Virus record (IMG/VR): IMGVR_UViG_3300029858_000001
Span: 91,123 to 155,122 of that record
Source of the DNA: a virus
DNA length: 64,000 bases
Reading direction: 5' to 3' (one strand)
Below the pieces are notes generated by a model that was not told where the DNA came from, searched no databases, and saw only the letters and a program-made list of their open reading frames with translations. Numbering within the stretch: the stretch's first letter is position 1; the number at the start of each line of letters is the position of its first letter. Shown here in pieces: positions 40,183 through 62,185 of the stretch. The translations under genes were made by a program, and so were the position numbers.

Positions 40183-40224
40183 AAAATAGCTCCTTTCTCT
40201 CATTATAATTTTCTATATATAAAG

Positions 40225-40257
40225 AAAAGGCGAGAGGAACAAAGCCTCTCGCCTTTT
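40225..40257. terminator. Hairpin plus T-run between the chaperone-like gene and the TMP (attenuator or terminator)
   Basis: aaaggcgagagg aacaaag cctctcgcctttt. Confidence 0.5.
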
Positions 40258-40901: not shown

Positions 40902-40930
40902 ATTATAACAAAAAAATTTTTCAAAGTCAA
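40902..40930 (-). promoter_or_regulatory. Consensus sigma-70-type promoter on the minus strand (TTGACT, 17 nt, TATAAT), preceded by three A5T5 tracts
   Basis: Minus strand reads ttgact ttgaaaaatttttttgt tataat. The aaaaattttt element is repeated 3x on the upstream side. Confidence 0.55.
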
Positions 40931-42468: not shown

Positions 42469-42470
42469 AA

Positions 42471-43556: not shown

Positions 43557-43635
43557 AGGTTATTTCCTCCTTAATAAAATTTAAATTTTATTTATATAAC
43601 TCGCTACAAAAATTAGTAAAGCGATTTATACAAAA

Positions 43636-44960: not shown

Positions 44961-44981
44961 TCTCCGATTTCTCCTTCATCT

Positions 44982-45977: not shown

Positions 45978-46263
45978 TGTGAAGCCCCCTTAATAAAGTA
46001 ATAGCTTCAAACACTGTCTTTCTATAAATAGGAAATTCAATTTCAATATTTTTTAGTCCTTCTAATTTACTTAAAAGAATTAAATACTAACTATCATTAA
46101 AAATTTCCCCAAGACCAGTTAATTCAATAATTACAGTATTTAACTAAGATAACCAATCTTCTTCATTTTCACGCATAGGAATTAATTTCCATATCTAATT
46201 AGTTAATCTATTAATATTAGTATTAATTAAATCATTATTTATATCAAAATTATATTTAGTCAT
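45970..46263 (-). CDS. Small hypothetical protein (~98 aa)
   Basis: ATG 46263. Open through three TAGs to TAA 45970-72. Confidence 0.35.
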
Positions 46264-46867: not shown

Positions 46868-46889
46868 ATAAAACCCTCCTTATTTATAA

Positions 46890-47456: not shown

Positions 47457-47479
47457 TTTTTTATTCTCCTTTTACTCAT

Positions 47480-47521
47480 AAAACAAAATAGGGGAGAAGG
47501 GGATTTCCCCATTCTCCCCTA
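47480..47521 (-). terminator. Strong rho-independent terminator right after the major capsid gene
   Basis: The minus strand reads aggggagaatggggaaatccccttctcccct followed by attttgtttt. Confidence 0.8.
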
Positions 47522-47555
47522 AAAATATTATATATTAATTTTTAGTTAATATCAA

Positions 47556-48692
47556 TTACGGCTTATCTTCATTTCCGCCATCAATAGTATCATGAGAACC
47601 AGTAATCTGACCAGCATAGTCACGAACCTTACCAGTTACGCCATCAAGATGCCATGTCTTCATATCACCAAGAAGTTCAGTATCACAATAGCAGCAGATG
47701 TTATTAGCTAACATAGCAATAACGCCAACTTTCTTATAAACCTGAATTTCACGGCTACGATCATAATTGGTGTATTCATCAACAATGGTATTGCCTTCCA
47801 TAGCAACCTTTACAGGCTTACTATCAGCACCAGTAGGAATAATCCAAGCATAACCTGGGTCAATGACTTTCTTTTCATTAGTAGCATCTTCAAAGCCCTG
47901 CTCAAGAATAACAACTTTATAGCCCTTATAGGAAGCAAGACGACCAGTATTCCAAAGCTCATTTTTCATAGCTTCAGTATAACGCCAAGCATCCTTCGGA
48001 ATCATACGAACAGCAAATTCATAAGTGCAATAAATAGTAGGAGTACCATAAGCAGAAGCAATCATAAGTAACTTATCAAAGCCGGGTTCATCAAAACCAT
48101 TAGCAACTAAACGGTTAGCAGGAGGTAACTGGTTAACAGAAGCCTTTAAAGCACCGGCAATTTCTTTATAGATAAGTTCGTCCATACCTTCCATGACGAT
48201 CTGGGTAACAACACCAAAATCAACACGGCCATCAAGGAATTCCTCAAAGCCAATTTGAGCAGCTCCGCCGATAGCGCTTGTACGGACTTCAAAGCATTCT
48301 TCAGTCTTACCAAGCTTGAATACTTCATAGATACCAGCTAGGCCGACACGAGTGATGAATTGCTTTGCACGAGTATTGTTGCTGAACTTTCTACGGAAAA
48401 TAGGCTTGTCACCCTGTTTAAACGTCTTAACTTCAGCAAACTGATTGTATTGCTCTTCAACTTTCTTAGGAAGAACTTCATCAATAGTTTCCTCAATCAT
48501 TGAGAAAATAAGGTTCTTATTATCACGATATAAAGAATAAGTTCCAGCAAGTTCATTTAATTCTCTACGGAGAGTTTCATTAAGAGCATCATAAGAAAGG
48601 CTTTCGCCATTAAAGCTGTAAGCAGTAGGAGTAGAAGGATCAGCCTTAGCGACAGTCTTCATTAATTGAACAAGATTTTTTCTATCTAACAT
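47556..48692 (-). CDS. Major capsid protein (HK97-like by size and position), TAG-free 378 codons
   Basis: Intact ORF preceded by a strong RBS GAAAGGAGAG. Positioned after the scaffold-like genes, followed by a strong terminator. GC is higher than the surroundings. Confidence 0.65.
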   Translation of the reverse strand: MLDRKNLVQLMKTVAKADPSTPTAYSFNGESLSYDALNETLRRELNELAGTYSLYRDNKNLIFSMIEETIDEVLPKKVEEQYNQFAEVKTFKQGDKPIFRRKFSNNTRAKQFITRVGLAGIYEVFKLGKTEECFEVRTSAIGGAAQIGFEEFLDGRVDFGVVTQIVMEGMDELIYKEIAGALKASVNQLPPANRLVANGFDEPGFDKLLMIASAYGTPTIYCTYEFAVRMIPKDAWRYTEAMKNELWNTGRLASYKGYKVVILEQGFEDATNEKKVIDPGYAWIIPTGADSKPVKVAMEGNTIVDEYTNYDRSREIQVYKKVGVIAMLANNICCYCDTELLGDMKTWHLDGVTGKVRDYAGQITGSHDTIDGGNEDKP

Positions 48693-48709
48693 TTTTCTTC
48701 TCTCCTTTC

Positions 48710-49486
48710 TTACGCGATTCGCATAATCTTAACGCCCTTTTGATGATCAGGCATTTCATAAACCTTGACAACCTACCATTGGATAGAGCCATCACCAGAC
48801 TTAGAAAGCATACCATCAGTAGCACGAGGACTTAAAACATCGCCAACTGCAAGAGTAGCTTCGGCAATAGTATTAGTCGTAAAAATATCACCAACATTGG
48901 TCTTGAAAACACGAGGAACCATATTAGTACCAGCGGGCATTCTACGGGCCTCATAAGGACCATCAAAATGTAAAGGATCTTCTTCATAGAAGAGTTCACG
49001 AATATCAGGACCAGCAGTAACATCATCATACTCATAAGTATGTTGTACACCCTGACTATCTGTAATAGTCATAGAAGTATTACCTTCGGCGTCCTTACCA
49101 TTTAAATAACGAGCCTGACGTGTACCAATTTCCTGCTTACCATCATATGGGCTGTAGTAACGAGCCTGATAATCATCTTTGCGCATAGCAAATTCGCAAT
49201 CAGCTTGTTCCTCACGATAAAGTTTAATTTCATTATAAACTAACATCCATTCGCCCTTGCCAGTGAAATCAACTTCACCAAGGTCACCAGCAGCATAGTC
49301 ATACTTAACAAACTGGCCATTTTCAAGAAGCTGGATATTTTTGTTAGCAGGTAATTGAGCGTAAATCTGACCAGTGCGCTGAGCACTTAAATGATTAGGC
49401 TCAACCTGACCATAGCCATATTCAACGTAACCGCCCTTAACAGCAGATACGCCGCTTAGGTCTTTAAGCATATCTTTTAAAAGCAT
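48710..49486 (-). CDS. Hypothetical capsid-associated protein (~258 aa), one TAG
   Basis: Track ORF 48773..49486 continues through TAG 48773 for 20 codons to TAA 48710-12. Confidence 0.5.
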
Positions 49487-49510
49487 TAGGTTTTCCTCCT
49501 TAAAAATTTA

Positions 49511-51076
49511 TTATTCCATAGTTTTCGCAACATCCTATACTGCCTTAATCCAAGCAGGAATGCTATCGTCATTTACATCATTATTAATATTATATGTAAG
49601 TGGGTCATTTTCTTTCTTGTCATTAGTATCGAAATTGACCTTATTGCGAACACAGATAATAGAAAGCTTTGCTTCAATATCATCTAATGAATAAGTATCA
49701 ATATTAGCAACAACATCTTTCTTATCATCATCAGATAACATATAGAAACTATTAATCATTTCTTGCTTTTTGTCTCTTTCAGCTTCAGTTTTAAACTGAG
49801 TTAAAGAAGCAAGTTCTTGTTCGAGCTGTGTTTGCTTTTCAACTAATTCATTATACTTAGTTTCAAGCGCGGCATACTCATCTTTTAATAAACCATACTC
49901 AACTACATCTTCCAAAGAGTACTTAGCTTTCTTTTTCTTTTTTTTCTCTTCGTCATCCTCAGTTGGTTCTCCTTCTTCATCAGAAGTATCAGTTGGTTTA
50001 TTTTCGGGAGTGTCCTTCTTTTCACCATCTTTTGGCTGATCTTTAGAAGGATCTTCCTTATTATTATCATTATTCTCTTTATTGTCTTTATCTTTTTCGT
50101 CCTTTTTTTTCTTCGCAAATTCTGCGACTTTTTCAGGATCGAATTGAGGATTATCAGAAACAGAATAATCAGTTAATTCAGAAACTTCGCCAGGAGTGAA
50201 AGTATCGTTCTCCATAGAAAAATCTAAACGAACAAACTTATCATCTTCCTTGACAATAGCAAATAAATTACCATTGTCTTCGCAAACTTCTTCAATCATT
50301 GCATTACCTGCTCCGAAGCCCTTAATGTAAGAATAAAGAGAAGTCCAAATGGAATCACCAATCTCCACACTATATCTTGTGAACACTTTTGTTCCTCCTT
50401 TACCTTCTAATAATTCTTTTAAATCTTTCATCATAGAGAATAATTGCTCATTAAATTTATCACTAAATGAGAAATGCATCGTAGGAGCAGTAATATTAGC
50501 TCCTTCAAAGCAAGGTTCACAATCTTCTCCAAGAATACAAAGTTTCTTAATTATTGCTTCATTTATAATAAAAAATTCGGGCATTCCATTCTTATCTTTC
50601 GACCAATACGCATTAATTTTTTCATCATCTAATTCCATAGATTGATTATTACCTTTTTCAATAATGCGCTTACTTTCTGGATAGATATCTGTCCAGATAT
50701 AGCCTTCAGTCATTAAATATTCATGCTCGTTTTTTCCATCATCTAAGAATTTCTAAAACCAAACTTTTGCTCCTAAGTCTACAAAACCATAAGGAACAGT
50801 GGTATCTTTTACATCAAATTTACCATTAGAAATATCAATTACACGATTATGTTCTTCATAATCTCCATTAGCTTCATTGTAATAACCAACAATGGGGCTA
50901 CCTGGTAAACTCTACGCTAAATCTTTAGCAACTTCTTTTGTTATAATACTTCTATTGCGATTTGGTTTATCACTAACATAGCAGACTTTAATCTAACACT
51001 TAGAAATTAAAGGATTGATTTTAGTGATATTAATAAACTCAACAGGAGTATCTAACTTAACACTTGTATGTCTCAC
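49511..51076 (-). CDS. Scaffold-like protein with an acidic low-complexity linker and coiled coil
   Basis: GTG 51076, 8 nt after AGGAGG. In frame with track ORF 49535..50713. D/E/K-rich linker then a coiled-coil. TAG 49535, then TAA 49511. Confidence 0.4.
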
Positions 51077-51088
51077 TATAAATCCTCC

Positions 51089-52774
51089 TTATTTACCAGC
51101 AGCTTGACGATTAGCAATTGTTTTTTCGCTCTTTTCATCGTTAGCTTTTTCTGGTCGGCCACCCTCTTTAGTTTCTGTTTTTACAGTGGTATTTCCACTT
51201 GTTTTATTTTGAGAAGTGTTAGAACTATTCTAATCTTTTTTACCCAAAATATCTTCACCATTTAATGTAGAACTCATAAGAGGTGGTATCATAACTTCAC
51301 TTAAGTGTAAAACTTCGTTTTCAAAATGAGCTGTATTAAGAATAAAACTCTATGATTGTCCAAGAGCAATCTAAGGTAACATTTTAGAGAAACCAATCTA
51401 AGTTTGCTCTTTATACATTTTAGATAAATCTTTATAATTATACTATGTAGTTTCTAACATATAGAATTTATAATTATATTTTTTCTAAACATTCAGGACT
51501 GATAATATTCTATCAAAAAATATGTTGAATTGCAAAATTAAATTACGCATGGTAGATTCATCATCTAAGATAGACTTTTCTAGGGCGATATTACCATCTG
51601 TATTAAACAAATTGCGCGAAACACCAAATGCATTATATACAGTTCGTTCAACACGCTCTAATTCATCTGTAGTAGCAGAAGTATTTTTATCAGAAGTATC
51701 AATAGCATCTACATCAGCAAAAGTAGTTAATACATCAACACCTACTGCTCTACGAAGCATTTCAACAGCATTATTATGAATATCACGAGCTTCATCAATA
51801 TCAAAAATCAAATCACCATTTTTATCAAGCGGTAATTTCTAAACTAAAATTTTTAACAATTTCTGCATTTGTTTGCGGCGGTCCAAATCTTGTGCAGCAT
51901 CCAAATCTAAAATCGCAGGAATAGCATTTACAAATAATGGAATATCATTAGTACCATTTAAAGCAAATTTAATAGTGCTTTGTGGATCTAATAAATACCA
52001 GCTACCAGTATTATCCCCAGCTACATCAGGTAAAAGTTTACCAGCTTTATAAAGACGATAACCTATTGTAAATTCATCAGGGAATAATTTTAATACTCTA
52101 TTACGATAATTAGTATCTACAAAAGTATCAAAGTATCTCATATCAAATTCAATAGCAGGTAAATTACCTACTGAATACCTTGAACGGCAATACTCAATAG
52201 GAAGTTGCTATAAAATTAAGCCAGTGCTTGATGGAACAATATAAGCATAGTAGGCTCCGCATTTGATAACTTCAAGAGCCATATCGCCACAAATTTTCTT
52301 AATATAAGAATTATCTAAATAATTTAAAATTCGCCAGAAATCTTTTACTGCTTTTGTTTCATTAATGTCTTTAACAGTAGAGCCATCAGTATTATTAGAC
52401 TAAATAGCAATAGCCCAATCATAACGATACATATTCGCAAAATAATTACATACCCTTTGATAAATACCACTTACTCTAAAAAAGAAACGTGATATTCTTC
52501 GCAGTTCTTGAATATCATTACGAATTAAAGCATCCATAACCATAGGCTTTGTATAAATACGTTCACGGCTATATTTTTCACTACGACGACCGTAAGTGTC
52601 CCATCTGAAAGAACCAAGATTTAAGACAGCATCATCTAATGTCTTAACACCAACCTTAATCTTCTTATACTCACTAGGGCCAACTGCAGAATACTCGCGT
52701 GTTCCTCCAGTTATGTCAAAACCTTTTTTATGTATCTATTCATTTCTGGTTAATTCTTCCTTTTCTAATTCCAT
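51089..52774 (-). CDS. Portal protein (~560 aa), TAG-containing
   Basis: ATG 52774 after AGGTGA. Track ORFs 51839..52141 and 51485..51811 are in frame. Gene order is TerL, small gene, then this. Size fits a portal. Confidence 0.5.
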
Positions 52775-52791
52775 ACTTCACCTTCTTTCAA

Positions 52792-53148
52792 TTAATATCC
52801 AGCTTTTCGCATTATATAATCATAAGAAATTAAATTTTCTTCTGTATAAGGAATTTCTATTAAATGTAAATCATGTAAAGCACAGAATCTACGTTTTTGA
52901 TTATCATTATATTGCTATTGATATAATCCGCGTTTTCCACCAAATTTATTACTGGCTTCATAATGCTATTTCCCTTGATATTCAATTAAAAAATCAATAT
53001 TATTATCATCATCAAATATGACAAAATCAAAACGTAAAGGACGACCGTTATGTGTTTTTAAATCTGGAAATATATATTCCATCTTAAAATTCAGGCCGGC
53101 TTCTTCTAAGATTTCTCTAATCTTAATTTCCGCACGACTGGCATCCAT
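52792..53148 (-). CDS. Small PD-(D/E)xK / Vsr-DUF559-like endonuclease (possible free-standing homing endonuclease), one TAG
   Basis: DFVIFDDDNNIDFLIEYQGK(TAG)HY resembles the D...(I/L)E-x-(D/Q)G-x-x-H core of Vsr-like nucleases. It sits between terL and portal. Confidence 0.4.
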
Positions 53149-53184
53149 ATATTAAGTCTCCTTTCTTATCTACAAATAAATTCC

Positions 53185-53227
53185 TCTTATTATTCTTTTA
53201 AAAATTAATTTAAAAGAATAATAAGAG
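53185..53227. other. Perfect 19-bp AT-rich inverted repeat immediately downstream of terL
   Basis: ctcttattattcttttaaa / tttaaaagaataataagag with a 5-nt loop. Confidence 0.5.
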
Positions 53228-53236
53228 TTGCCCGGC

Positions 53237-54988
53237 TTAATTCATAAACATCCAATCAGCAGCCCGGAATTTTTTCTTCTTTTTATCTTCTTCTATTTTT
53301 TTTATATAATATAATCCATACTCTAATGCAGAGAATTTATCCTTTTTAATACTTTTATTAGCTTGTTTTAAAATTATATTTAAGCCTTCATTTTCTTCAC
53401 GCAAATTCATAATCTCTTCGCGCAATGAAGTAGTTAAACTAAATGGTCTTAAATAATCAGATCGCGCCTCTGTGGTCATATTCTAACCCACTTTAGTAGT
53501 TAATAATTTCTATTTAGCAGTTCGTTCATCAATTAAAAATTTGATCTTACCAGAATTTAACACTGACTAAGTAATACTATGTGCTTCAGTATTGATTGGT
53601 GCATTAGCTTTCATTAAATATAAAACGTCTAATTCTGTGCTATTGGTTTTATATTTTTTATATTCTTGAACTGCATCATCTTGAGTTCCACCATAAACTC
53701 CAAAATCAGGAATTACTTCAGAAGTTTCAGGATTAATCTAAGGCTTAACCATAAAATCTACTAAACCAACACCAAGTCCATTAGCATCTATTACAATTCT
53801 ACGAGCTTTATACTTATAATATAATTTTTTAAGTTTAATAGCCTAATCTTCAAAATGTGTATCATTCATAGTATAAATATTAACTAAACTTTTAATTGGC
53901 TCACCATGCGGTTGTGGTGTTACTTTAAATATACAGACAACAGTATCACACCCTTTACGGCCTACATCAACACTTAATATATAATAAGATAATTTACTTG
54001 AACGGCCAGAAGCTTCATATTCAGGCTAATTCAGTATTCTATTCCTATTAAATATTTCTGCATTAAAGAAAGCATCTTCAACAGTACCAGACCAGATTGA
54101 TTCATATTCACGTTCGAAAGAAGCTTCATTATAAGTTCCTTCATTTTTCTGGTCAGTAATAAATGTCTTCTACTGTAATCCAACAGCAACAGGAGTTCGC
54201 CAAGTTCCACCTAATACCATACATCTATCAGGCTATGTAATCATACGAACTAATAAACCAATTAATCTATCATAAGGATATGTATTTTTATAACCAGCAG
54301 TAGTAATATAAATCTATGATTTATTTACTGCTTCCTCTTCATGAGTTGTACCATCCTTAGCTCTACGAGGAATAGCCATAACTGGTATAATGACTTCGCG
54401 CAAAATCTAATCATCAATACCTACACATTCTTCCATTAGACCGCCATGACGACGCTGACCACGAGTACTTTCTCTCGCGGCTAAGTTATCAAGGACAGAC
54501 CCATTTTTAAATACATAACGTACTTTATCTTTACTCTCTTGGCTCTTGCCTCGACCCCAATCAATTTCGCGTTTAAAACTTGGTATTAAATCACAAATTT
54601 CATTAACTTTATCATGTAGAATACTTGCGCCTTGTTCCTTACCGCCAGAAGTAACAAATAAATGAACACCAGGATAAAGAATACATCTAACCATTAATGC
54701 CATGACTGATAAGAATGATTTAGAATAAGCACGAGGAAAAACTGCATAAACGTACTGATAACGCATTACACATCTTAAAAAAACACGCTGATAGAAGAAA
54801 AACTTAAATTCTCCTTCTTTCTATTCTGTACGGGTTCCTCGTACTAAAAAATCAACAAATAAATCTGGATATTCGCGCCAAAAGGCAGTATATTTACGAA
54901 TGACTGGCATTACAGCATTAATACGTTCTTCAGAAAGACCTATCTTTTTTCTACTGGTAGATAGGTCAAGTAAATCTTGTAACGCCAT
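53237..54988 (-). CDS. terL: Terminase large subunit, TAG-rich
   Basis: The N-terminal ATPase region spans YQYVYAVFPRAYSKSF. C-terminal nuclease motif IDANGLGVGLVD. Track ORFs 54407..54766 and 53237..53479 are in frame with ATG 54988. Confidence 0.7.
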
Positions 54989-56202
54989 TAATCTTCTCTA
55001 TCAGAGAAAGCATCTATATCTAACTCTGTTTCATTATCTAAAAATTCACTAAAGTCTTCAATGTCTTTATCTTCTAAAGTTTTTTCAATGTCTTCAATAG
55101 ACATATCAACATCATCAACAATTGTATCTTCGACGTTTTCTTTAGCCTATTCATCTTCTTTAGCGTTTTGTTTTAATGCCTAATCAATCATATTGCCAAG
55201 ATTAGTTTCTCGTTCAATTAAAGTGCGTGTATATTTTTGCATATCTTTAATTGTAAAATCTACTTTATCATTCGGAGTATCAATATAATATCTTTCGATA
55301 TAACCTTGTTTCTCACACATTTCTATTAATTCACCAACAGAATCAATAAAATCACCAGACTCTTCTTTATTCTGAGCCGCAGTAAATTTGCCCGATTTCA
55401 TTAAAGAATCATACATTTTAATCATCTTTTGGGCGCCGTCCACATCACCTATATCTAATAACTAATTAGATTTTAATGATGTCTTACAGGCAAGTTTTAA
55501 TGTATCAATATGGCCTGCGGACTAAATATCGTAAGACTACATCATTTCATTAAATAATTGCTCTAAACGCACCCATTCATCAGGACTATAACCTTTTCCC
55601 CATTTTAAATAAAGATACCGTTTATCTTCGTCTGTCAGTTCTGCGCCTAAATCAGGAACCTCAAAATCTAATTTATCTTTAAAATAATCTTCTGTAGAAT
55701 TCCCAAAATCTAGGGGAGGAGGCGCTGGAGGAGGCGGCTCTTTTAATTCTTCTGATGGCAAAGCAAATGAAGCACGTTGAATGGCTGTAGTGATATCTTG
55801 AATGTCATACCCCTATTGCTTCATTGTTTCTTCTATTTTTTTATTTTGTAAGTCTTGCAAGAATTGACTATCTTTCCATCTGTAATCTTTCCATTGATTT
55901 AATTTCATTGCAGAGAGATAGCGACCTAATATTGTCATTCCAGTGACTTTTGTTCTATCCTTCGCAAATTTACCCATTAACTAATTCCACTATTCAGGAA
56001 TGTAAGGAACATCACATTCTTGCAATATCCATAGATAAGTATCCGGATTCCAATTATCTACATGCATTGTTATACATTTTTTACATTTTGGTAATTTACC
56101 ATCATTAGGATATTTATCTAAATTATTAGATGTATAAAACTAAGTTCCATCCATAGTTTTATTACATTTTTCACAGTAATATTGTTTACCTTCGCTGGAC
56201 AA
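54988..56202 (-). CDS. Zn-ribbon protein with a Pro-rich linker and acidic C-terminus; terminase small subunit candidate by position
   Basis: TTG 56202 after AAAGGAG. CEKC...CKKC at the N-terminus. Track ORFs 55537..55761 and 55180..55443 are in frame. TAA overlaps the terL ATG. Confidence 0.4.
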
Positions 56203-56220
56203 TCAATATTTCTCCTTTCT

Positions 56221-57285
56221 TTAGGATTTCATTTTTTCTTTACGAGAACTATTTCGGCATTTTTTGCATATACTATAAAATCCATCTTTACTTGTTTTAT
56301 TATAGGAAAAATATTTATTGTGAGCCAATTTAATTTGCCCACATCTACTGCATTTTTTATACTTACCTTTTTCTTGAGTCGTATAATACCATTCTAAATA
56401 TTTATCAACGGCTTTATCAGCAATAAGTTTTGGTATTTTATTGCGGAATAAACTTGATATATATTCTAAGCTGTGAGTAATATTAAATTCTTCTTGTAAA
56501 ATTTTTTGAATCTCTATATTTTGTAATCCATCAATTTTACATTCTACAATGCGCATTAACATAGGATAGTCAGCTAAGGCTTCATCGCAAATATTTTCAA
56601 AATCATAAATAAGATACCAAGTATCATCTTCAAAACGATCCCAACTGTCTTCTTTTAATCGAGAATAGTTACATAAGACACAAGAGCAAATTTCAGGATT
56701 CATTAATGAAATTCCTTCGGGAATTGGATATCCATCATCATCGAACATTTTTACATCTTCATCTAATTTAATTTTATATTTAGATCGTGTAAGTTTTACT
56801 GGTACTATTGGTTTTCGATAAGCATTTTTAATAACATATTGATCTTTGCGCATTTCTATTAATGCCTTTTTTATAGTGAAAGCATCTTTACCACTTACTA
56901 CTTTCATTTTTGCTTCCCAAGTTGTAATAGCGTCTTTTAATTGTTTTAAGCTAGGAATTTCTTCTAAATCTTTTTTTGTAATTGTAACTTTTGGCTAAAA
57001 TATCATATTCTTATCACTATTAATTAAATTATATATACCATCTTCACCATTCTCTAACTGGGAAACAAGTCCTTCGAAAGAAGTTTCACGTTTATTAACT
57101 GTCATTAATCTATTATCAGTTAATATTTTCTTTTCTTTTTTTTCTTGTTTCTCCATACATAGAATTAGATAATCTGCGAGGATTTCTAAATACTTTTCAT
57201 TAGGATTTGGATTTTCCTCTAAAATTTTTTTTACTAATTCATTTCGTTCTTCAGGAGTTTCAAGAGTATAATCTAATTTTATCAA
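56221..57285 (-). CDS. First late-operon protein (~354 aa) with a C-terminal CxxC...CxxC zinc ribbon; possible DNA-binding or regulatory protein
   Basis: TTG 57285 after AGGATTGGAGG. Track ORFs 56995..57342 and 56221..56907 are in frame, joined through TAG 56995. The ATG at 57342 lies inside the -35 box. Confidence 0.45.
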
Positions 57286-57313
57286 GATTAATACCTCCAA
57301 TCCTTCTAAAAAA

Positions 57314-57342
57314 ATTATAACACAAAAAATTTGCAAAGTCAA
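57314..57342 (-). promoter_or_regulatory. Consensus promoter for the 43-kb late operon (TTGACT, 17 nt, TATAAT on the minus strand)
   Basis: Revcomp of 57337-42 is ttgact. Revcomp of 57314-19 is tataat. The spacer is exactly 17 nt. Confidence 0.6.
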
Positions 57343-57396
57343 CCATGGCCAAAAATTTTTATAGTATTTAATAAAAAAATTATGTAAAATGTAAAA

Positions 57397-57425
57397 TTGA
57401 CAATTATAAAAATTTTTTATATAAT
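57397..57425 (+). promoter_or_regulatory. Divergent consensus promoter (TTGACA, 17 nt, TATAAT) for the plus-strand early genes
   Basis: ttgaca attataaaaatttttta tataat. Confidence 0.6.
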
Positions 57426-57454
57426 AATTATATAAAATTAAAGGAGATAATTTT

Positions 57455-57610
57455 ATGAGAAAACCTCGTGGTATTTTAGGTAGTATGGCTTCTAAAGCTA
57501 AGCGTAGAGCAACTAATAGCGCAACTAGAGCTGTTTATCAACTTATGTGGGGTGAAAATCCTAAACAGCAAGGAGCTTATAATCCTGTTAAGGAACGTAA
57601 GAAAAAGTAA
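57455..57610 (+). CDS. Small basic protein (51 aa)
   Basis: AAAGGAG RBS. Sequence MRKPRGILGSMASKAKRRATNS... Confidence 0.4.
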   Translation: MRKPRGILGSMASKAKRRATNSATRAVYQLMWGENPKQQGAYNPVKERKKK

Positions 57611-57645
57611 ATATATTATATTTAAAAATTGAGGGAAGTGATTTA

Positions 57646-58083
57646 ATGAAGTTTGTCCATGGGCTTCTTTTAGGTACTGGGGCGGCGTTTGGTTTAGGAT
57701 GTGCGGCCAGATTTATTTACGGTAAAATTATTGAAGCAAAAATTTATAAAGATTATACTAAAGCGCTTGAAGATTTTATGAATTTCAAAAGCGATAAAAA
57801 ATATATTGAATATAATAAAGGGCTAGAAGAAAAATATATTGGGCCTGGAATAGTTCATGTCATTAAAAATAAAAAAGATTTAATGGCTATTGACTTATCT
57901 AAATATGAAGAAGAGGGAGATCCAATCGGCATTACTCTTGGTTCTAAAATTGTAGATAAAGAAGATCAATATATTATACCTGAAGTAGAAGTTTATAAAT
58001 TTAAAAATGGATATACAAATTATCGGTTCCATCAAGAACGAGGAGTAATTGACCCTAATGAAGGTATTATTCCTTTTGATTAA
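57646..58083 (+). CDS. Membrane-anchored hypothetical protein
   Basis: N-terminal TM. GAGGGAAG RBS. Confidence 0.5.
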   Translation: MKFVHGLLLGTGAAFGLGCAARFIYGKIIEAKIYKDYTKALEDFMNFKSDKKYIEYNKGLEEKYIGPGIVHVIKNKKDLMAIDLSKYEEEGDPIGITLGSKIVDKEDQYIIPEVEVYKFKNGYTNYRFHQERGVIDPNEGIIPFD

Positions 58084-58112
58084 TTTATGTTAAGATCTTG
58101 TTAAGAAAAATT

Positions 58113-58141
58113 TTGACAAAAAACAAAAAATTTTGTAAAAT
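58113..58141 (+). promoter_or_regulatory. Promoter-like element (TTGACA, 17 nt, TAAAAT)
   Basis: ttgaca aaaaacaaaaaattttg taaaat. Confidence 0.45.
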
Positions 58142-58202
58142 AAGTTATAAAATTTGTGGGATGGTTCACACTCTCCCAATTAAAAAGAAAGGAGTGAGTT
58201 TA

Positions 58203-58403
58203 ATGCTGAAAACAGCTTATACAAGAAAACTCGATACAGTTGGACGTTTAATGATTCCTTCTAAACTTCGTGAAGAATTGCATATGGTAAATGGTCATAA
58301 TTATGAATTTTATATTGACGAAGTAGATGGTAAGACTTTTTTATGTATTGAATGTCCTGAAGCCAGTGACGCCGTAGCTCTTGCAAAAGAAACGTTGGAA
58401 TAG
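58203..58403 (+). CDS. AbrB/SpoVT/MazE-family swapped-hairpin DNA-binding protein
   Basis: KLDTVGRLMIPSKLREEL matches the AbrB-N GRvviP..iR motif. RBS AAAGGAG. ATG 58203. Confidence 0.6.
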   Translation: MLKTAYTRKLDTVGRLMIPSKLREELHMVNGHNYEFYIDEVDGKTFLCIECPEASDAVALAKETLE

Positions 58404-58439
58404 AATGGGTATCGAGTAATTAAAGAATAATTAGATTAA

Positions 58440-58475
58440 AGCGGGAAAATATTTTCCCGCTTATTTTTTTTTATA
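58440..58475 (+). terminator. Rho-independent terminator
   Basis: aagcgggaaaatattttcccgctt followed by T10. Confidence 0.8.
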
Positions 58476-58595
58476 AAAATCGTTTTTTAAAATTGAAATA
58501 ATTATCGTTTTCTGAAATTAAAATTATTATCGTTTTTTGAAATTGAAAATGAGTTTAGAAATTATTATCGTTATCTGAAATTGGAATTGAGTTTA
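58469..58595. repeat. Four iteron-like direct repeats (core tatcgtttt[ct]tgaaatt), spaced 25, 25 and 38 bp
   Basis: Units start at 58469, 58494, 58519 and 58557. The last two carry an extra gagtttagaaattatt module. Confidence 0.6.
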
Positions 58596-58654
58596 GAAAT
58601 TATTTTGCCAGGCAGGAAGATTTATCCATTTTTTCCATTTTTTTTACACGAAAC

Positions 58655-58725
58655 CCTGCCCCCCACTTCACTTGACTAAAGTGTTAAAGTCTATTGTCTT
58701 ACTTTACTTGAGTGAAGTGAGTTAG
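58655..58725. repeat. Long imperfect palindrome (cacttcacttgactaaag ... ctttacttgagtgaagtg)
   Basis: 14 of 18 positions match between the arms. Flanked by C-runs. Confidence 0.4.
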
Positions 58726-58774
58726 ATACGACTAACCCCCGAAAAAAATATTTCGTTTTTTTTGAAAAAAGTTC

Positions 58775-58802
58775 TTGACTTTTTGGAAATAGCCGCTATA
58801 AT
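58775..58802 (+). promoter_or_regulatory. Near-consensus promoter P1 (TTGACT, 16 nt, TATAAT)
   Basis: aaaaagttcttgact ttttggaaatagccgc tataat. Confidence 0.6.
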
Positions 58803-58885
58803 GATAATCAGAAATCAACCACAAGGCAATGCAAAACAAGCCGCAAGGCAAGCGAAAAAAATTCAAGAAATTTTGAAAAAAGTTC

Positions 58886-58914
58886 TTGACAAACAGAGCG
58901 CCATGTGGTACAAT
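58886..58914 (+). promoter_or_regulatory. Consensus promoter P2 (TTGACA, 17 nt, TACAAT), a tandem duplicate of the P1 upstream context
   Basis: The shared upstream motif ttgaaaaaagttcttgac occurs at both P1 and P2. Confidence 0.6.
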
Positions 58915-58921
58915 TCAAAAT

Positions 58922-59173
58922 GTCAAGAGGACAGAGACAGACCACAGCAAGTTCTCTTGTGTGACGTAAAATGACCGGCAGACGCGGACAGCACCGAACC
59001 GCTTGCACCTTGTAAAGTGAATTTAAGCCAAACGCCTGCACCGCACAGCGGGCGCAATGGTAGAACATGGAAAGTGCGGTGCAAGCTGTAGGGCAGTCCA
59101 ACGCCTACGGCAGACAGCATCACGGACAGGTGACACCTAACAGTCAAATAATATGTAAAGGATTGGTAAAATC
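58922..59173 (+). ncRNA. GC-rich, highly structured ~250-nt leader (or small RNA) between P2 and the first ORF, with mutually exclusive helices
   Basis: gcttgcacc (58996) and tgcaccgcac (59037) can each pair with the overlapping gtgcggtgcaagc (59074-86). GC here is ~55 % against ~30 % elsewhere. Confidence 0.3.
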
Positions 59174-59578
59174 ATGGTTATAAACATATTCACAAGTAAG
59201 GAAGATAAGGAAAAAGCTATCAAGACAGAGCTTGCTGAGCAGGCACAGGACTTGGTAGGATATGTCAAGCAGTACCATATGTTGGGGGACGAGTTCGACT
59301 ATGAACGCACCCTTGAGACATATCATTGTTATGCGGCAAGTAACATTGACGCATGGGATAGCTTAACATGGGCTATTGATAGCGCAGAATATGACCTTGA
59401 GCATACGCCATATAATATGGATATGGAAACCGGCTGTCCATGTGCTGAATATGATGCAATTTACCAGAAGCTGGCAGATATGCGCGAAGAAGCCGAGGAA
59501 TGGGCAAACACCTTTGAGCATATGTTCGAGGACTTCTTTAATAAGCTGTATGACCTGTTATATGGTGAAGAAGCATAA
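59174..59578 (+). CDS. Acidic hypothetical early protein
   Basis: Intact ORF with RBS. TAA stop. Confidence 0.5.
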   Translation: MVINIFTSKEDKEKAIKTELAEQAQDLVGYVKQYHMLGDEFDYERTLETYHCYAASNIDAWDSLTWAIDSAEYDLEHTPYNMDMETGCPCAEYDAIYQKLADMREEAEEWANTFEHMFEDFFNKLYDLLYGEEA

Positions 59579-59631
59579 GCTTCTTCACCCATTCACCTAA
59601 CAACACTTTGACATTATATGGAGGTAAAACT

Positions 59632-59967
59632 ATGAACCGTATCAATAGAAGAGCCATTCGCAAGGAAGCGCTGATGAACACCATCGAGCGCGTTAATACT
59701 GCCATCAGCAAGGTTAACTTCTCTGACCCTAATGGCAAGGACACCTTCCACAAGCTGTTGGACAAGAAGGACTATATTGCTCAGCAGATCGCCGAAGCCA
59801 GCTACACCGAGTATTCGATGAAAGCTAACTATAATGAGGTCAAACGCATTCTCTCTCATATGGATGAAGGCGGCTGTGCTGAGTGGGTCAAGTGGGACAT
59901 TAAGCAGCTGGCAGCAAGTCGGCGTCGCTGGGCTATCGCCACAAGCAAGCAGATTTGGTTGGGCTAA
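59632..59967 (+). CDS. Hypothetical early protein
   Basis: ATG 59632 after GGAGGT. Confidence 0.5.
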   Translation: MNRINRRAIRKEALMNTIERVNTAISKVNFSDPNGKDTFHKLLDKKDYIAQQIAEASYTEYSMKANYNEVKRILSHMDEGGCAEWVKWDIKQLAASRRRWAIATSKQIWLG

Positions 59968-60000
59968 TTGCCCAACCAACCACAGAAAGGGGACAACATT

Positions 60001-60189
60001 ATGTACGCTATCTATAATCACACCACAGGCAAGTATGGCATTATCTACCGCAGTCTGACCGTAGCACGGTCTATGGCTCACGCTTACAGCATATGGGCAA
60101 AGAATGACAGAGATGTCATTGATATGCAGACTGGCGAAGTAATGAGTCAGTTTAGCAAAGGACACGAAACTTATAGGGCTATGGCTTAA
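60001..60189 (+). CDS. Hypothetical early protein (62 aa)
   Basis: ATG 60001 after AGAAAGGGGA. Confidence 0.45.
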   Translation: MYAIYNHTTGKYGIIYRSLTVARSMAHAYSIWAKNDRDVIDMQTGEVMSQFSKGHETYRAMA

Positions 60190-60224
60190 TTGCCATAGCC
60201 TACCAATAGAAAGGAGATAACATT

Positions 60225-60530
60225 ATGTTCTCTACAAAAATCGCATTCGTTAATTCGACTGGCAGCACCTATGACTGCGCCGAGTTCTTTACAAAATGCC
60301 CTTGGTGCGATAGCACCGAAGAAGCCACCAAGAGAAAGAAAGAATGGCTGGGGCGGCTTGAGGAAGTGCTGTACATTATGCAAGAGCTGGAACCTTGTGA
60401 CAGCCGCAACTGGGCACATAACTTGTGGGACAAAGAATCTGTGGAATTCAATTTCCATAATCTGACAAAACATCTGGTCATTCTGATCAAAGGTCCATTC
60501 AGTTTTCAGGTAATGGTGAGGGACATTTAA
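60225..60530 (+). CDS. Hypothetical Cys-containing early protein
   Basis: AAAGGAG RBS. CPWCD motif. Confidence 0.5.
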   Translation: MFSTKIAFVNSTGSTYDCAEFFTKCPWCDSTEEATKRKKEWLGRLEEVLYIMQELEPCDSRNWAHNLWDKESVEFNFHNLTKHLVILIKGPFSFQVMVRDI

Positions 60531-60598
60531 GTCCCTCTACCGCTTACCAACCGCACAATCGAGCGCATGAATTGAATTTTCGGAAAGGAATTTTTGAA

Positions 60599-60751
60599 AT
60601 GAAAAATTTCAAACTCGCTATTTACCTTACCTCAGTCATAGTCTTACTCTGGATTAGCATTTCATTTTGCAATGTAGTTGCGCATAATAATCCGGCTGAT
60701 GGGGCTTATGAATATCCCTCTTGGAACTTTTTCGTGATGATGGAGGATTGA
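60599..60751 (+). CDS. Possible 50-aa single-TM peptide
   Basis: RBS GGAAAGGAA. Hydrophobic core LAIYLTSVIVLLWISISF. Confidence 0.3.
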   Translation: MKNFKLAIYLTSVIVLLWISISFCNVVAHNNPADGAYEYPSWNFFVMMED

Positions 60752-60752
60752 A

Positions 60753-60998
60753 ATGAAAAATCAACATAGATGGTCAGGCGAATGGACACAGAGGGGAGCG
60801 CTTGGAGCGCATGACCTCTTTACTCTCAATGGCGAATGGGATGATATTCTCTATATCCCAGTTGGCGCAGAGGGCTGGGCGGATGGGGCTAATGCTTTCA
60901 ACCTCTCAACTCAGGAATTTGAAATCATTCCTCAACATTGGGAAGTCTTTAAGGTAGACCTTGATAGGTCTAGGGCAAATTGGAGTGAAGAGGGTTAA
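60753..60998 (+). CDS. Trp/acidic-rich hypothetical early protein
   Basis: Intact ORF with GGAGGA RBS. Confidence 0.5.
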   Translation: MKNQHRWSGEWTQRGALGAHDLFTLNGEWDDILYIPVGAEGWADGANAFNLSTQEFEIIPQHWEVFKVDLDRSRANWSEEG

Positions 60999-61013
60999 GA
61001 CCCTCTTCACTTA

Positions 61014-61205
61014 ATGAAAGGAATAATTGAAATGGAAATGGTCAGAACCTTGCTCGATGGCTGGCTGCCCGTGAAGCCATTCTCTTATGTATATGGCATT
61101 TATTGGGATTATCTCTACACTGATTCCTATAAAGGAATTGAATTCAATGTCTATAAACATATAACTAACGAAATGTGTGTTGTTCTCACAAGTGAAATAA
61201 TTTGA
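61014..61205 (+). CDS. Hypothetical small protein
   Basis: ORF only. Weak RBS. Confidence 0.3.
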   Translation: MKGIIEMEMVRTLLDGWLPVKPFSYVYGIYWDYLYTDSYKGIEFNVYKHITNEMCVVLTSEII

Positions 61206-61219
61206 AAGGAAAAACGAAA

Positions 61220-61531
61220 ATGATAAACATTCGCACAATCAAGAAACTGACTGATGGCGATGGTCTGACCCTTAAGAATGGAAAAATCAAGAGGTACAAG
61301 AGTGGCTATCAGGTAGCTACTAATGGCGTCGAAGTCATCAGTCCTGAAATGGCAATACAGGCGGTTCGAGAGTTCAAAGGCACTTGCGGCATTTGGCTTG
61401 AAAATGGCAGATACTACATTGACATTTCTAAACGAGTCAGCACCAAACGCGAAGCAGTTGAAATTGGCAAGAAATGTAATCAGCTTTCAATTTACAGATG
61501 GCGCGGCAATCCTGCCTGCCTTTATATTTAA
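61220..61531 (+). CDS. Small early protein, paralog A of a tandem pair
   Basis: MINIRTIKKLTDGDGLTLKNGKIKRYKSGYQV. Confidence 0.5.
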   Translation: MINIRTIKKLTDGDGLTLKNGKIKRYKSGYQVATNGVEVISPEMAIQAVREFKGTCGIWLENGRYYIDISKRVSTKREAVEIGKKCNQLSIYRWRGNPACLYI

Positions 61532-61554
61532 GATTTGAAAAGGAGAAATAAAAA

Positions 61555-61872
61555 ATGATTAACGTTAGAACTATCAAGAAAATGCTGGACGGCGATACCC
61601 TGAATATCAAGAACGGGAAAATCAAGAAGTACAAGGGCGGTTTTCAGGTGAATGTGCAGACCTATGAACATGACAGTCCTGAATCTGCTATCTTCTGGGC
61701 GAAACTGCTTAACACTCTGGATGGCGGTTGCAGTATTCAATTCAAAAATGGAAAATATTACGTCAGCACCACGAAGCACGCCTATACCAGACGACAGGCA
61801 AGGGAAATGGCAAATGATGCAGGTCAGGGCGCTATTTATGAATGGCAGAATCTGGCTCATATGGCAGTTTGA
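61555..61872 (+). CDS. Small early protein, paralog B
   Basis: MINVRTIKKMLDGDTLNIKNGKIKKYKGGFQV. It is followed by a hairpin plus T-run at 61880-61915. Confidence 0.5.
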   Translation: MINVRTIKKMLDGDTLNIKNGKIKKYKGGFQVNVQTYEHDSPESAIFWAKLLNTLDGGCSIQFKNGKYYVSTTKHAYTRRQAREMANDAGQGAIYEWQNLAHMAV

Positions 61873-61879
61873 TCCTGAA

Positions 61880-61915
61880 ATTCCAAGGGCTGGAAATTGG
61901 AAACAGTTTCCAGCC
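61880..61915 (+). terminator. Rho-independent terminator
   Basis: gggctggaaattggaaacagtttccagccc followed by attttt. Confidence 0.6.
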
Positions 61916-62185
61916 CATTTTTCAAATCCTCTTCTTTAATTCATTATCACTTTAATCAAATGAATTGCCTCGCCGGGGCGTGGCGAAATTGATATATCCA
62001 CAGCAAGCTCGCCACGCCCCGCATTTTCCATTTAATACCAATTCCGAATATTTCCAGCCAAATTCTACCATATCTGGTATTACATTCCATTTCCCATATC
62101 CTACCAGCTTATGGTATATAATTCCATACCAAATATTTCCAGAATCTTTGTGCATATTGACGAATAAAAAAATTTAACTTTCCTA

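What the first reader, a model, noticed from the sequence alone, without database searches (positions are those of the whole stretch)
57305..57430. Back-to-back consensus sigma-70-type promoters drive the 43-kb late operon and the rightward early genes
Minus strand TTGACT, 17 nt, TATAAT (57314-57342) and plus strand TTGACA, 17 nt, TATAAT (57397-57425) are both textbook host promoters, 55 bp apart and divergent. A near-perfect host-type promoter in front of the terminase-to-tail operon is unexpected for late genes. Late expression may instead be controlled post-transcriptionally, for example by the amber recoding. Alternatively the first zinc-ribbon protein (56221-57285) or the AbrB-like protein modulates it. 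The ATG that the track uses at 57342 lies inside the -35 box.
Basis: seen in the sequence. Interest (0 to 1): 0.55.

Follow-up and report, generated by a model that had tools for sequence, protein, structure and literature searches.

The report
Conserved divergent host-type phage promoters
Two back-to-back, near-perfect host (sigma-A/sigma-70 type) promoters really are there and are conserved across a large clade of gut phages of Gram-positive bacteria. The leftward one starts a roughly 10-kb unit that opens with a transcription-regulator gene and runs into the packaging and head genes, not a single 43-kb late operon, so this is a solid but ordinary piece of phage gene-expression architecture.

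Summary
**Observation: confirmed.**
- Plus strand: TTGACA-17-TATAAT at 57397-57425 (12/12).
- Minus strand: TTGACT-17-TGnTATAAT at 57342-57314 (11/12, extended -10).
- Both sit in one 169-bp intergenic region, each about 22 nt of leader plus a Shine-Dalgarno ahead of a start codon.
- A 12/12 site is expected 0.14 times per window.

**Conservation.** In 53 distinct orthologous upstream regions, a site of at least 11/12 occurs on the gene strand in 47 and on the opposite strand in 52. Shuffles give 0.5. Flanking sequence diverges.

**Interpretation: partly supported.**
- The window is a TAG-recoded siphovirus with SPbeta/phAss-like packaging genes and strong Shine-Dalgarno sites, so the host is probably a Bacillota.
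- The first leftward gene (56221-57285, TTG start, not the "ATG at 57342") encodes a sigma-region-4-like HTH plus zinc-ribbon protein (phrog_5767, "sigma factor").
- It is contiguous with the next gene and TerL, with no terminator or conserved promoter between them in 76 relatives.
- The 43-kb block is not one operon. It holds at least six strong intrinsic terminators, the first at 47521-47481, and a near-identical second promoter at 40930.
- Standard-code relatives keep the same promoter pair, so amber recoding is not what makes the arrangement workable.

Ordinary; low interest.

The parts
57397..57425 (+). P_R: -35 TTGACA (57397-57402), 17-nt spacer ATTATAAAAATTTTTTA, -10 TATAAT (57420-57425). 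Predicted TSS about A57432.
   Evidence: 12/12. A promoter-like site on this strand is conserved in 52 of 53 distinct orthologous regions. The TSS is inferred from the usual 7-nt distance, not measured.
57314..57342 (-). P_L: -35 TTGACT (57342-57337), 17-nt spacer with an AAATTTTTT tract and TG at 57322-57321 (extended -10 / -16 region), -10 TATAAT (57319-57314). Predicted TSS A57307 or G57306.
   Evidence: 11/12, TG flagged. In 52 distinct orthologous variants the position frequencies are TTGAC 100%, TG 84% and T-A-T-A-A-T 100/98/88/92/98/100%. The TSS is inferred.
57351..57360 (.). AAAAATTTTT tract upstream of the P_L -35, about -45 to -54 from the predicted start. It resembles an UP element. 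A similar A/T tract (57370-57396) precedes the P_R -35.
   Evidence: Sequence. The same A-run/T-run block recurs upstream of the -35 in relatives. Its function as an UP element is inferred from established knowledge of alpha-CTD sites.
57283..57298 (-). Shine-Dalgarno GGAGG (57298-57294) and the true TTG start codon (57285-57283) of the first leftward gene. The leader is about 22 nt.
   Evidence: GGAGG is conserved at 90% or more, and orthologues have ATG, TTG or GTG at the aligned position.
56221..57285 (-). First leftward gene, 354 codons with one in-frame TAG at codon 97. It encodes a helical protein with a sigma-region-4/LuxR-like HTH and a C-terminal four-cysteine zinc ribbon.
   Evidence: - phrog_5767 'sigma factor', E 1.2e-52.
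- AF2 model with pLDDT 86.
- hhalign places residues 233-275 on RpoE region 4.
- The four cysteines are invariant.
- No Pfam, NCBIfam or PDB sequence hit.
54988..56202 (-). Second leftward gene (phrog_3314, N-terminal zinc ribbon, 9 in-frame TAG). It starts 18 nt after the stop of the first gene.
   Evidence: The stop-to-SD gap is 0-33 nt in most relatives (two outliers, 35 and 44 nt), with no conserved promoter or hairpin.
53237..54988 (-). Large terminase subunit (12 in-frame TAG). It overlaps the previous gene.
   Evidence: phrog_2 and phrog_15503. tblastn gives 47% identity to Geobacillus virus E3 TerL and 41-45% to Enterococcus phages and phAss-1.
47481..47521 (-). First strong intrinsic terminator downstream of P_L (hairpin -24.7 kcal/mol plus a U-run), 35 nt after the capsid-like gene 47556-48692. 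It is the likely end of the P_L unit, which would be about 9.8 kb.
   Evidence: partly seen. The only earlier candidate is the AT-rich hairpin 53227-53184.
40902..40930 (-). Internal promoter TTGACT-17-TGTTATAAT. It matches P_L at 26 of 29 positions, spacer included, and lies intergenic ahead of gene 40295-40822 and the 3141-codon tape-measure gene.
   Evidence: Conserved in two close relatives.
40221..40257 (-). Internal intrinsic terminator. Others on the minus strand lie at 42318-42287, 27606-27573, 16775-16743 and 14054-14021.
57455..58083 (+). First rightward genes served by P_R: a 51-aa basic protein (57455-57610; SD AAGGAG 57441-57446) and a 145-aa protein with an N-terminal hydrophobic segment (57646-58083). 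Neither has an in-frame TAG.
   Evidence: No family hits. The 51-aa protein is found in 32 related loci.
58113..58471 (+). Second rightward promoter TTGACA-17-TAAAAT (58113-58141). It precedes the AbrB/MraZ-like gene 58203-58430, which has a TAG at 58401-58403 read as Q. Terminator at 58439-58471.
   Evidence: (MraZ PF02381, 25 bits against a cut-off of 23). The AbrB-like gene is on the divergent side in at least 38 of 80 loci. Orthologue L005 has a Q codon where the window has TAG.

Best explanation
**What it is.** The 169-bp gap 57286-57454 is a divergent control region. It holds two independent, maximal-strength promoters for the host housekeeping sigma factor (sigma-A of a Gram-positive, probably clostridial, host).

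**P_R.** It starts a short rightward unit: a 51-aa basic protein and a 145-aa protein. A second promoter then serves an AbrB-like regulator, and the unit ends at the terminator 58439-58471.

**P_L.** It carries a -35, a -16/extended -10, a -10 and an upstream A/T tract. It starts a leftward polycistronic mRNA.
- The first cistron is a sigma-region-4-like HTH/zinc-ribbon regulator.
- The same mRNA continues without interruption into the zinc-ribbon phrog_3314 gene and TerL.
- It most likely continues through the portal and head genes to the strong terminator at 47521-47481.
- The tail half of the structural block is served separately by a near-identical promoter at 40930 and is punctuated by terminators.

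**Shown versus inferred.**
- Shown: the sequence elements, their geometry, their conservation, and the absence of a terminator or promoter at the gene 1/gene 2 junction.
- Inferred: actual start sites, recognition by host sigma-A, the timing of P_L activity, and what the regulator acts on.
For: - Both sites are present at the stated positions. A 12/12 site is expected 0.14 times per window.
- Conservation: sites of at least 11/12 in 47 and 52 of 53 distinct orthologous regions against 0.5 in shuffles. The distance from the -10 to the start codon is fixed at 22-30 nt.
- Column frequencies show invariant TTGAC, TnTGnTATAAT and a spacer AAATTT step (42/52 and 31/54 spacers). The reverse step TTTAAA occurs in 0/52 and 4/54, although the two hexamers have equal background frequency.
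- The same holds in 27 more divergent MAG loci.
- Host type: AGGAGG-type Shine-Dalgarno sites on nearly all genes, and the nearest cultured TerL relatives all infect Bacillota.
- Co-transcription: the gap from the gene-1 stop to the next SD is 0-33 nt in most relatives (two outliers, 35 and 44 nt). In the 76 distinct junction regions scanned there is no conserved sigma-A-type promoter, and the few sites of at least 10/12 are lineage-specific. No strong hairpin lies there.
- Not one operon: terminators and the promoter at 40930.
- The same promoter type also precedes dnaE at 1743-1771.
- Regulator identity.
Against: - No transcript data exist, so start sites, strength and timing are all inferred.
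- The host is unknown. MAG assignments are mixed and unreliable.
- A near-consensus promoter directly ahead of packaging and head genes implies early transcription of late functions unless something represses it. No operator was identified.
- The AT-rich 19-bp hairpin 53227-53184 may stop part of the P_L transcripts before the portal gene.
- A regulator-dependent promoter without a recognisable -35 could be hidden in the end of gene 1 or in the 28-33-nt gaps of some relatives. These often contain a loose T-rich ATAAT-like element.
Confidence: 0.72

Rival explanations
1. Ltr/RinA-like cascade. P_L serves only the regulator gene, as an early or middle product. The regulator then activates a separate, sigma-A -35-less late promoter just upstream of the packaging genes, so late genes are not driven by P_L.
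For: - The regulator sits immediately upstream of the packaging genes in the same orientation and has a sigma-region-4-like HTH. This matches the position and domain logic of the Ltr superfamily (PMC3753634).
- About half of the relatives have a 28-33-nt gap with a loose T-rich ATAAT-like element.
Against: - No terminator follows the regulator gene, so read-through from P_L is unavoidable.
- In the window lineage only 18 nt separate stop and start. Many lineages have 0-12 nt.
- No motif is conserved across lineages. The intragenic candidate 56328-56299 is absent even from the 96-98% identical relatives L003 and L004.
- The protein is 354 aa, not about 130 aa, and matches none of the Ltr Pfam families.
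Confidence: 0.15
2. P_L is constitutively active, and lateness is imposed after transcription by TAG recoding. The regulator and packaging mRNAs are made early but are translated full-length only once a suppressor tRNA is available.
For: - In-frame TAG counts are 1, 9 and 12 in the first three leftward genes and 0 in the first two rightward genes.
- 39 of 49 distinct regulator orthologues carry 1-7 TAGs.
- The same consensus promoter type precedes replication, packaging and tail modules, so promoter class does not separate temporal classes.
- The general model is published (bioRxiv 10.1101/2021.08.26.457843).
Against: - Standard-code relatives (0-1 TAG in about 1200 codons of the late side) keep the same promoter pair and gene order. 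The architecture therefore works without recoding.
- The rightward AbrB-like gene also needs TAG read-through for its conserved tail.
- Some replication-side genes carry TAGs.
- No suppressor tRNA was found in the window or within 4 kb in 45 relatives.
Confidence: 0.1
3. The two sites are chance consensus matches in 72% A+T DNA and are not used.
For: Matches of at least 9/12 are as frequent as in shuffles (61 against 61.5). About six sites of at least 11/12 are expected per window.
Against: - Conservation of both hexamers, the 17-nt spacing, the TG and the distance to the start codon across about 80 distinct lineages while the flanks diverge.
- 12/12 is expected 0.14 times per window.
Confidence: 0.02

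Closest known systems
Gram-positive sigma-A promoters with a -16 region (TRTG / extended -10) and an upstream A/T tract, as used by early promoters of Bacillus phages (own knowledge)
   Same: TTGACA, a 17-nt spacer, TnTGnTATAAT, an A/T-rich upstream tract and a short leader to an AGGAGG Shine-Dalgarno site.
   Different: Here the same promoter type also sits ahead of packaging/head and tail modules (P_L, 40930) and ahead of dnaE, not only ahead of early genes. The spacer carries a conserved AAATTT step.
Phage phi29 central control region: divergent early A2b/A2c and late A3 promoters switched by protein p4 (own knowledge)
   Same: Early and late-direction promoters are back to back in one short intergenic region that separates oppositely oriented gene blocks.
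   Different: The phi29 late promoter A3 lacks a -35 box and needs the activator p4. P_L has a full -35 and needs no activator on sequence grounds. No p4-like sites were identified.
Ltr superfamily of late transcriptional regulators (RinA, ArpU, LtrA 'Sigma70_r4', LtrB, LtrC) of Gram-positive phages (PMC3753634, PMC3152322)
   Same: A regulator gene with a sigma-region-4-like DNA-binding domain lies immediately upstream of, and co-oriented with, the packaging genes.
   Different: - The protein is 354 aa with an extra N-terminal helical domain and a C-terminal zinc ribbon.
- It has no Pfam match to the Ltr families.
- It has its own consensus promoter instead of lying at the end of a long early transcript.
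- There is no room or motif for an Ltr-dependent promoter before the next gene.
phAss-1 / SPbeta-like large siphoviruses, including TAG-recoded gut phages (PMC10607447), and the recoding model of Borges et al. (10.1101/2021.08.26.457843)
   Same: - TAG recoding concentrated in structural genes.
- A tape-measure gene of about 3150 codons.
- TerL 41.5% identical to that of phAss-1.
- Homologues of the regulator in Enterococcus, Brevibacillus, Staphylococcus SPbeta-like and C. difficile phages, annotated 'sigma factor' or 'luxR'.
   Different: - No close nucleotide match in the phage collection.
- SPbeta transcribes its late cluster with its own RNA polymerase YonO (PMC8270828). No such enzyme was looked for outside this window.
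- Neither paper mentions promoters in its text.

Membership tests
Housekeeping sigma (sigma-70/sigma-A) promoter | -35 hexamer close to TTGACA and -10 hexamer close to TATAAT, separated by 17 +/- 1 nt | tested here: met
   12/12 (P_R) and 11/12 (P_L), both with 17-nt spacers.
Housekeeping sigma (sigma-70/sigma-A) promoter | Gram-positive -16 region / extended -10 (TnTGnTATAAT) | tested here: met
   P_L has TGTGTTATAAT. TG is present in 41/52 P_L and 30/54 P_R variants. P_R of this window lacks the TG.
Housekeeping sigma (sigma-70/sigma-A) promoter | Sensible position: intergenic, correct strand, short leader to RBS and start | tested here: met
   Predicted leaders are about 22 nt to GGAGG/TTG 57285 and AAGGAG/ATG 57455. 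The distance from the -10 to the start codon is 22-30 nt in relatives.
Housekeeping sigma (sigma-70/sigma-A) promoter | Purifying selection on the elements relative to flanking DNA | tested here: met
Housekeeping sigma (sigma-70/sigma-A) promoter | Transcription initiates there with host holoenzyme | not testable with these tools
   No transcript data and no known host.
Sigma-70-family sigma factor (label given to the first leftward gene) | Region 4 HTH that reads the -35 element | tested here: met
Sigma-70-family sigma factor (label given to the first leftward gene) | Region 2 domain (core binding, -10 recognition and melting) | tested here: not met
   - No Sigma70_r2 or any sigma model hit in Pfam or NCBIfam for 52 family members.
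- A profile search of PDB sequences found no sigma.
- hhalign to RpoE aligns region 4 only.
- Foldseek found nothing.
- A domain-level structural search of the N-terminal half was not done.
Sigma-70-family sigma factor (label given to the first leftward gene) | Binds RNA polymerase core and redirects it to its own promoters | not testable with these tools
   No candidate cognate promoter motif was found at the gene junction.
Ltr late transcriptional regulators (RinA/ArpU/LtrA-C) | Gene immediately upstream of the packaging genes, same orientation | tested here: met
   Gene order is regulator, phrog_3314, TerL. The same order holds in relatives.
Ltr late transcriptional regulators (RinA/ArpU/LtrA-C) | Small (about 15 kDa) protein belonging to the ArpU, Sigma70_r4, DUF1492, RinA or LtrC families | tested here: not met
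   354 aa. No Pfam hit to these families.
Ltr late transcriptional regulators (RinA/ArpU/LtrA-C) | Regulator-dependent promoter between the regulator gene and the first packaging gene | tested here: not met
   The gap is 18 nt here and 0-33 nt in most relatives (two outliers, 35 and 44 nt). No conserved element was found.
Single 43-kb operon | No internal promoters or efficient terminators between the first and last gene | tested here: not met
   Six strong intergenic hairpin/U-run terminators and the promoter at 40930.
Stop-codon recoding as a gate on late-gene translation | In-frame TAG enriched in late genes and absent from early genes | tested here: inconclusive
   TAG counts are 9-108 in most structural genes and 0 in the first rightward genes. 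However, the AbrB-like gene and several replication-side genes carry TAGs, and capsid-like genes carry 0-1.
Stop-codon recoding as a gate on late-gene translation | The promoter arrangement depends on recoding | tested here: not met
   Standard-code relatives keep it.

The most novel reading that the evidence does not exclude
This phage clade may have no promoter-class-based temporal programme at all. One family of consensus sigma-A promoters (TTGAC-AAATTT-TGnTATAAT) heads the early, replication, regulator/packaging and tail modules. In the TAG-recoded lineages, the order of expression would then be set by translation: the sigma-4-like regulator and the structural genes carry amber codons that wait for a suppressor tRNA.
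Probability: 0.12. Interest if true: 0.6.

Novelty: new member of a known kind. Interest (0 to 1): 0.25.

Why it matters
**Annotation.**
- It fixes the true start of the first leftward gene at TTG 57285.
- It defines transcription-unit boundaries in an uncultured, TAG-recoded gut phage.
- It shows that the "late operon" is several units.

**Biology.**
- It gives a clean, deeply conserved promoter consensus for a very large clade (more than 6000 homologues of the adjacent regulator in metagenomes). Its Gram-positive sigma-A form is consistent with a Bacillota host.
- It supplies portable strong promoters.
- It shows that stop-codon recoding is not required for this promoter/gene arrangement.

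It does not reveal a new mechanism.

Tried and rejected
**Searches that found nothing.**
- Megablast of 55000-59500 against the phage collection.
- tRNA scans of the window and of 45 related loci, so no suppressor tRNA is nearby.
- Rfam on the whole window at gathering scores, and on 58400-59300 at E up to 1: nothing credible.
- Literature searches found no experimental work on this regulator family.

**Regulator identity.**
- Pfam, NCBIfam and PDB-sequence searches of the regulator and of a 52-member profile found no sigma or other family.
- Foldseek against PDB found nothing significant.
- The afdb50 library was unavailable.

**Gene 1/gene 2 junction.**
- No second sigma-A promoter or shared motif was found.
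- The intragenic candidate 56328-56299 was rejected because near-identical relatives lack it.

**Other attempts.**
The single-protein scan returned only MAG contigs with mixed taxonomic labels, so no reliable host was obtained.
- Only two close relatives were retrieved for the region around 40930, so its deep conservation is untested.
- A crAss-like identity, my first guess from the TAG recoding and the 3141-codon ORF, was rejected. Shine-Dalgarno sites are strong, the TerL relatives infect Bacillota, and the long ORF corresponds to the tape-measure protein of phAss-like phages.

Full report
**1. Observation**

Reading 57000-57800 and the consensus scan confirm both elements at the stated coordinates.
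- Plus strand: TTGACA 57397-57402, 17 nt, TATAAT 57420-57425 (12/12).
- Minus strand: TTGACT 57342-57337, 17 nt, TATAAT 57319-57314 (11/12), with TG at 57322-57321, that is TGnTATAAT.
- The -35 hexamers are 54 bp apart and the promoters diverge.

Loose matches are not informative in this 72% A+T DNA: 61 sites of at least 9/12 against 61.5 in shuffles. Near-perfect ones are rarer. The window has 11 sites of at least 11/12 against 6.0 +/- 2.5 expected, and one 12/12 site against 0.14 expected.

Six of the 11 lie between 57314 and 63651. The three on the minus strand that are intergenic (57342, 47555, 40930) all point into genes.

**2. What the window is**

Few long ORFs exist in the minus-strand block under the standard code. 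Reading TAG as sense doubles the coding length and yields a continuous block from 57285 down to 14065.

TAG stands for Q. The regulator homologue P0002 has Q at the window's TAG codon 97 (the peptide pattern NNKNVIFQ, against the window translation). Orthologue L005 has a Q codon where the AbrB-like gene of the window has TAG.

Nearly every gene has an AGGAGG-type Shine-Dalgarno site. TerL is 47% identical to that of Geobacillus virus E3, 42-45% to Enterococcus phages, and 41.5% to the TAG-recoded gut phage phAss-1. More distant hits are SPbeta-like phages. The 3141-codon ORF matches the tape-measure protein of about 3150 aa described for phAss-1 (PMC10607447).

The host is therefore most probably a Bacillota, where TTGACA/TATAAT with a -16 region is the housekeeping sigma-A consensus (established knowledge). 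MAG assignments of related contigs are mostly Clostridia but mixed.

**3. Anatomy of the control region**

| | P_L (minus strand) | P_R (plus strand) |
|---|---|---|
| Upstream A/T tract | AAAAATTTTT 57351-57360 | A-rich 57370-57396 |
| -35 | TTGACT 57342-57337 | TTGACA 57397-57402 |
| Spacer | TTGCAAATTTTTTGTGT | ATTATAAAAATTTTTTA |
| -10 | TATAAT 57319-57314 | TATAAT 57420-57425 |
| Predicted start | A57307 or G57306 | A57432 |
| Shine-Dalgarno | GGAGG 57298-57294 | AAGGAG 57441-57446 |
| Start codon | TTG 57285 | ATG 57455 |

The ORF caller's start at 57342 is the TTG of the -35 hexamer, not an ATG, and is an artefact. Orthologues have their ATG aligned with TTG 57285.

**4. Comparative test**

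The first leftward protein retrieved 80 loci from IMG/VR and 27 from genome and MAG contigs. More than 6000 homologues exist in metagenomes.
- In 53 distinct 180-nt upstream regions, a site of at least 11/12 lies on the gene strand in 47 and on the opposite strand in 52. Shuffles give a mean of 0.5 and a maximum of 2.
- Alignments show TTGAC and TA.AAT at 90% or more while the flanks vary.
- Position frequencies over 52 P_L variants are TTGAC 100%, TG 84% and the -10 at 88-100%.
- A spacer AAATTT step occurs in 42/52 P_L and 31/54 P_R variants. TTTAAA occurs in 0/52 and 4/54, although both hexamers are equally common in the background.
- The distance between the two promoters varies: adjacent -35 boxes in some lineages, 54-90 bp in others.
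- The first rightward gene also differs between lineages. It is the promoters, not the neighbouring sequence, that are conserved.

**5. What P_L drives**

*First gene (56221-57285).*
- It matches phrog_5767 "sigma factor" (E 1.2e-52, nearly full length).
- Homologues in Enterococcus VRE9/EF1/H1, Brevibacillus Sundance, staphylococcal SPbeta-like and C. difficile phiCD211 phages are annotated "sigma factor" or "luxR".
- Sequence searches find no Pfam, NCBIfam or PDB relative.
- Four invariant cysteines form a C-terminal zinc ribbon.
- I therefore call it a sigma-4-like HTH/zinc-ribbon regulator. A sigma region 2 was looked for and not found.

*Junction with the next gene.* The next gene (phrog_3314) starts 18 nt after its stop and overlaps TerL. 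In most relatives the stop-to-SD gap is 0-33 nt (two outliers, 35 and 44 nt). In the 76 distinct junction regions scanned there is no conserved sigma-A-type promoter, and I saw no hairpin or shared motif there. Co-transcription from P_L is the parsimonious reading.

*End of the unit.* The first strong terminator downstream is 47521-47481 (-24.7 kcal/mol), right after the capsid-like gene. An AT-rich hairpin at 53227-53184 flanks an inserted HNH endonuclease gene and may attenuate transcription.

**6. Not one operon**

Strong hairpin/U-run terminators also lie at 42318-42287, 40257-40221, 27606-27573, 16775-16743 and 14054-14021.

A promoter at 40930-40902 matches P_L at 26 of 29 positions, spacer included. 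It stands ahead of the gene before the tape-measure gene. The same promoter type (TTGATT-17-TGATATAAT) precedes dnaE.

**7. The rightward side**

P_R is followed by two small TAG-free genes. A second promoter follows (58113), then an AbrB/MraZ-like gene (Pfam 25 bits against a cut-off of 23) and a terminator at 58439-58471. More consensus promoters lie at 58775, 58886 and 63623. An AbrB-like gene is on the divergent side in at least 38 of 80 loci.

**8. Recoding**

The regulator gene carries 0-7 TAGs, and 39 of 49 distinct orthologues have at least one. It therefore belongs to the recoded set.

Relatives with 0-1 TAG in about 1200 late-side codons (L010, L011, L030, L050, L063) keep the same promoter pair. 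The AbrB-like gene also needs read-through. Recoding may add a translational delay, which is the published model. It does not explain the arrangement.

**9. Comparison and verdict**

The elements are textbook Gram-positive sigma-A promoters.
- The layout recalls the phi29 early/late divergent region (own knowledge), but P_L needs no activator on sequence grounds.
- The regulator's position recalls the Ltr/RinA superfamily (PMC3753634). It fails that family's size, family-membership and downstream-promoter criteria.
- The timing of P_L remains open.

This is a well-supported annotation of an ordinary feature in an uncultured phage clade.

Noticed in passing
window 58473-58600 (+): Four to five iteron-like direct repeats (ATTATTATCGTTTTYTGAAATTGAA, period 25 then 38 nt) immediately after the terminator of the AbrB-like gene. 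Possibly a replication origin, a pac site or a regulator-binding array.
   Followed up: no
window 58760-59150 (+): Two tandem 11/12 promoters, 111 nt apart, share an identical 20-nt block (TTTTGAAAAAAGTTCTTGAC). They lead into a GC-rich (about 55%) stretch with no convincing ORF. Folding z-score is -2.1 and there is no Rfam match. Candidate small RNA(s).
   Followed up: partly
window 58000-62000: G+C rises to 0.39-0.42 against about 0.28 elsewhere. Proteins here are only 69-77% identical in relatives whose neighbouring genes are 95-99% identical. This is a fast-evolving or exchanged early-gene region.
   Followed up: no
window 58401-58403: The AbrB/MraZ-like gene on the supposedly early side has an in-frame TAG nine codons before its TAA. 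The tail NGYRVIKE is conserved, and orthologue L005 has a Q codon at that position. Termination at the TAG would give a 66-aa form and read-through a 75-aa form.
   Followed up: partly
window 6667-9835 (+): An anaerobic ribonucleotide reductase-like gene is split into 6667-8019 and 8822-9835 by a GIY-YIG endonuclease ORF (8094-8702). This suggests an intron or intein insertion.
   Followed up: no
window 52792-53236 (-): An HNH/homing endonuclease gene is inserted between TerL and the portal gene. It is preceded by a 19-bp AT-rich hairpin (53227-53184). The Enterococcus phage EF1 TerL locus is likewise interrupted by an HNH endonuclease.
   Followed up: no
window 42471-43556, 46890-47456, 47556-48692, 48710-49486 (-): The presumably most highly expressed structural genes carry 0-1 in-frame TAG, whereas their neighbours carry 4-25. 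This fits avoidance of inefficient suppression in abundant proteins.
   Followed up: no
window 47527-47555 (-): A TTGATA-17-TATAAT site sits between the capsid-like gene's stop and the strong terminator hairpin. A transcript started there would begin with the hairpin, which could be a chance match or a 5' stabiliser.
   Followed up: no
window 34001-54000: Promoter-like matches are fewer than in shuffles (85 against 107.6 +/- 9.5) inside the structural genes. This hints at selection against spurious promoters.
   Followed up: no
window 1743-1771 (+): TTGATT-17-TGATATAAT with an AAATTTT spacer lies just upstream of the TAG-free dnaE-like gene (start 1808). It belongs to the same promoter family as P_L, P_R and the promoter at 40930.
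   Followed up: partly
loci L085-L111: Contigs of this phage clade are binned into MAGs labelled Mollicutes, Clostridia, Bacteroidales, Treponema, Endomicrobiaceae and others. This looks like binning contamination and is a warning against host assignment from MAG labels.
   Followed up: no
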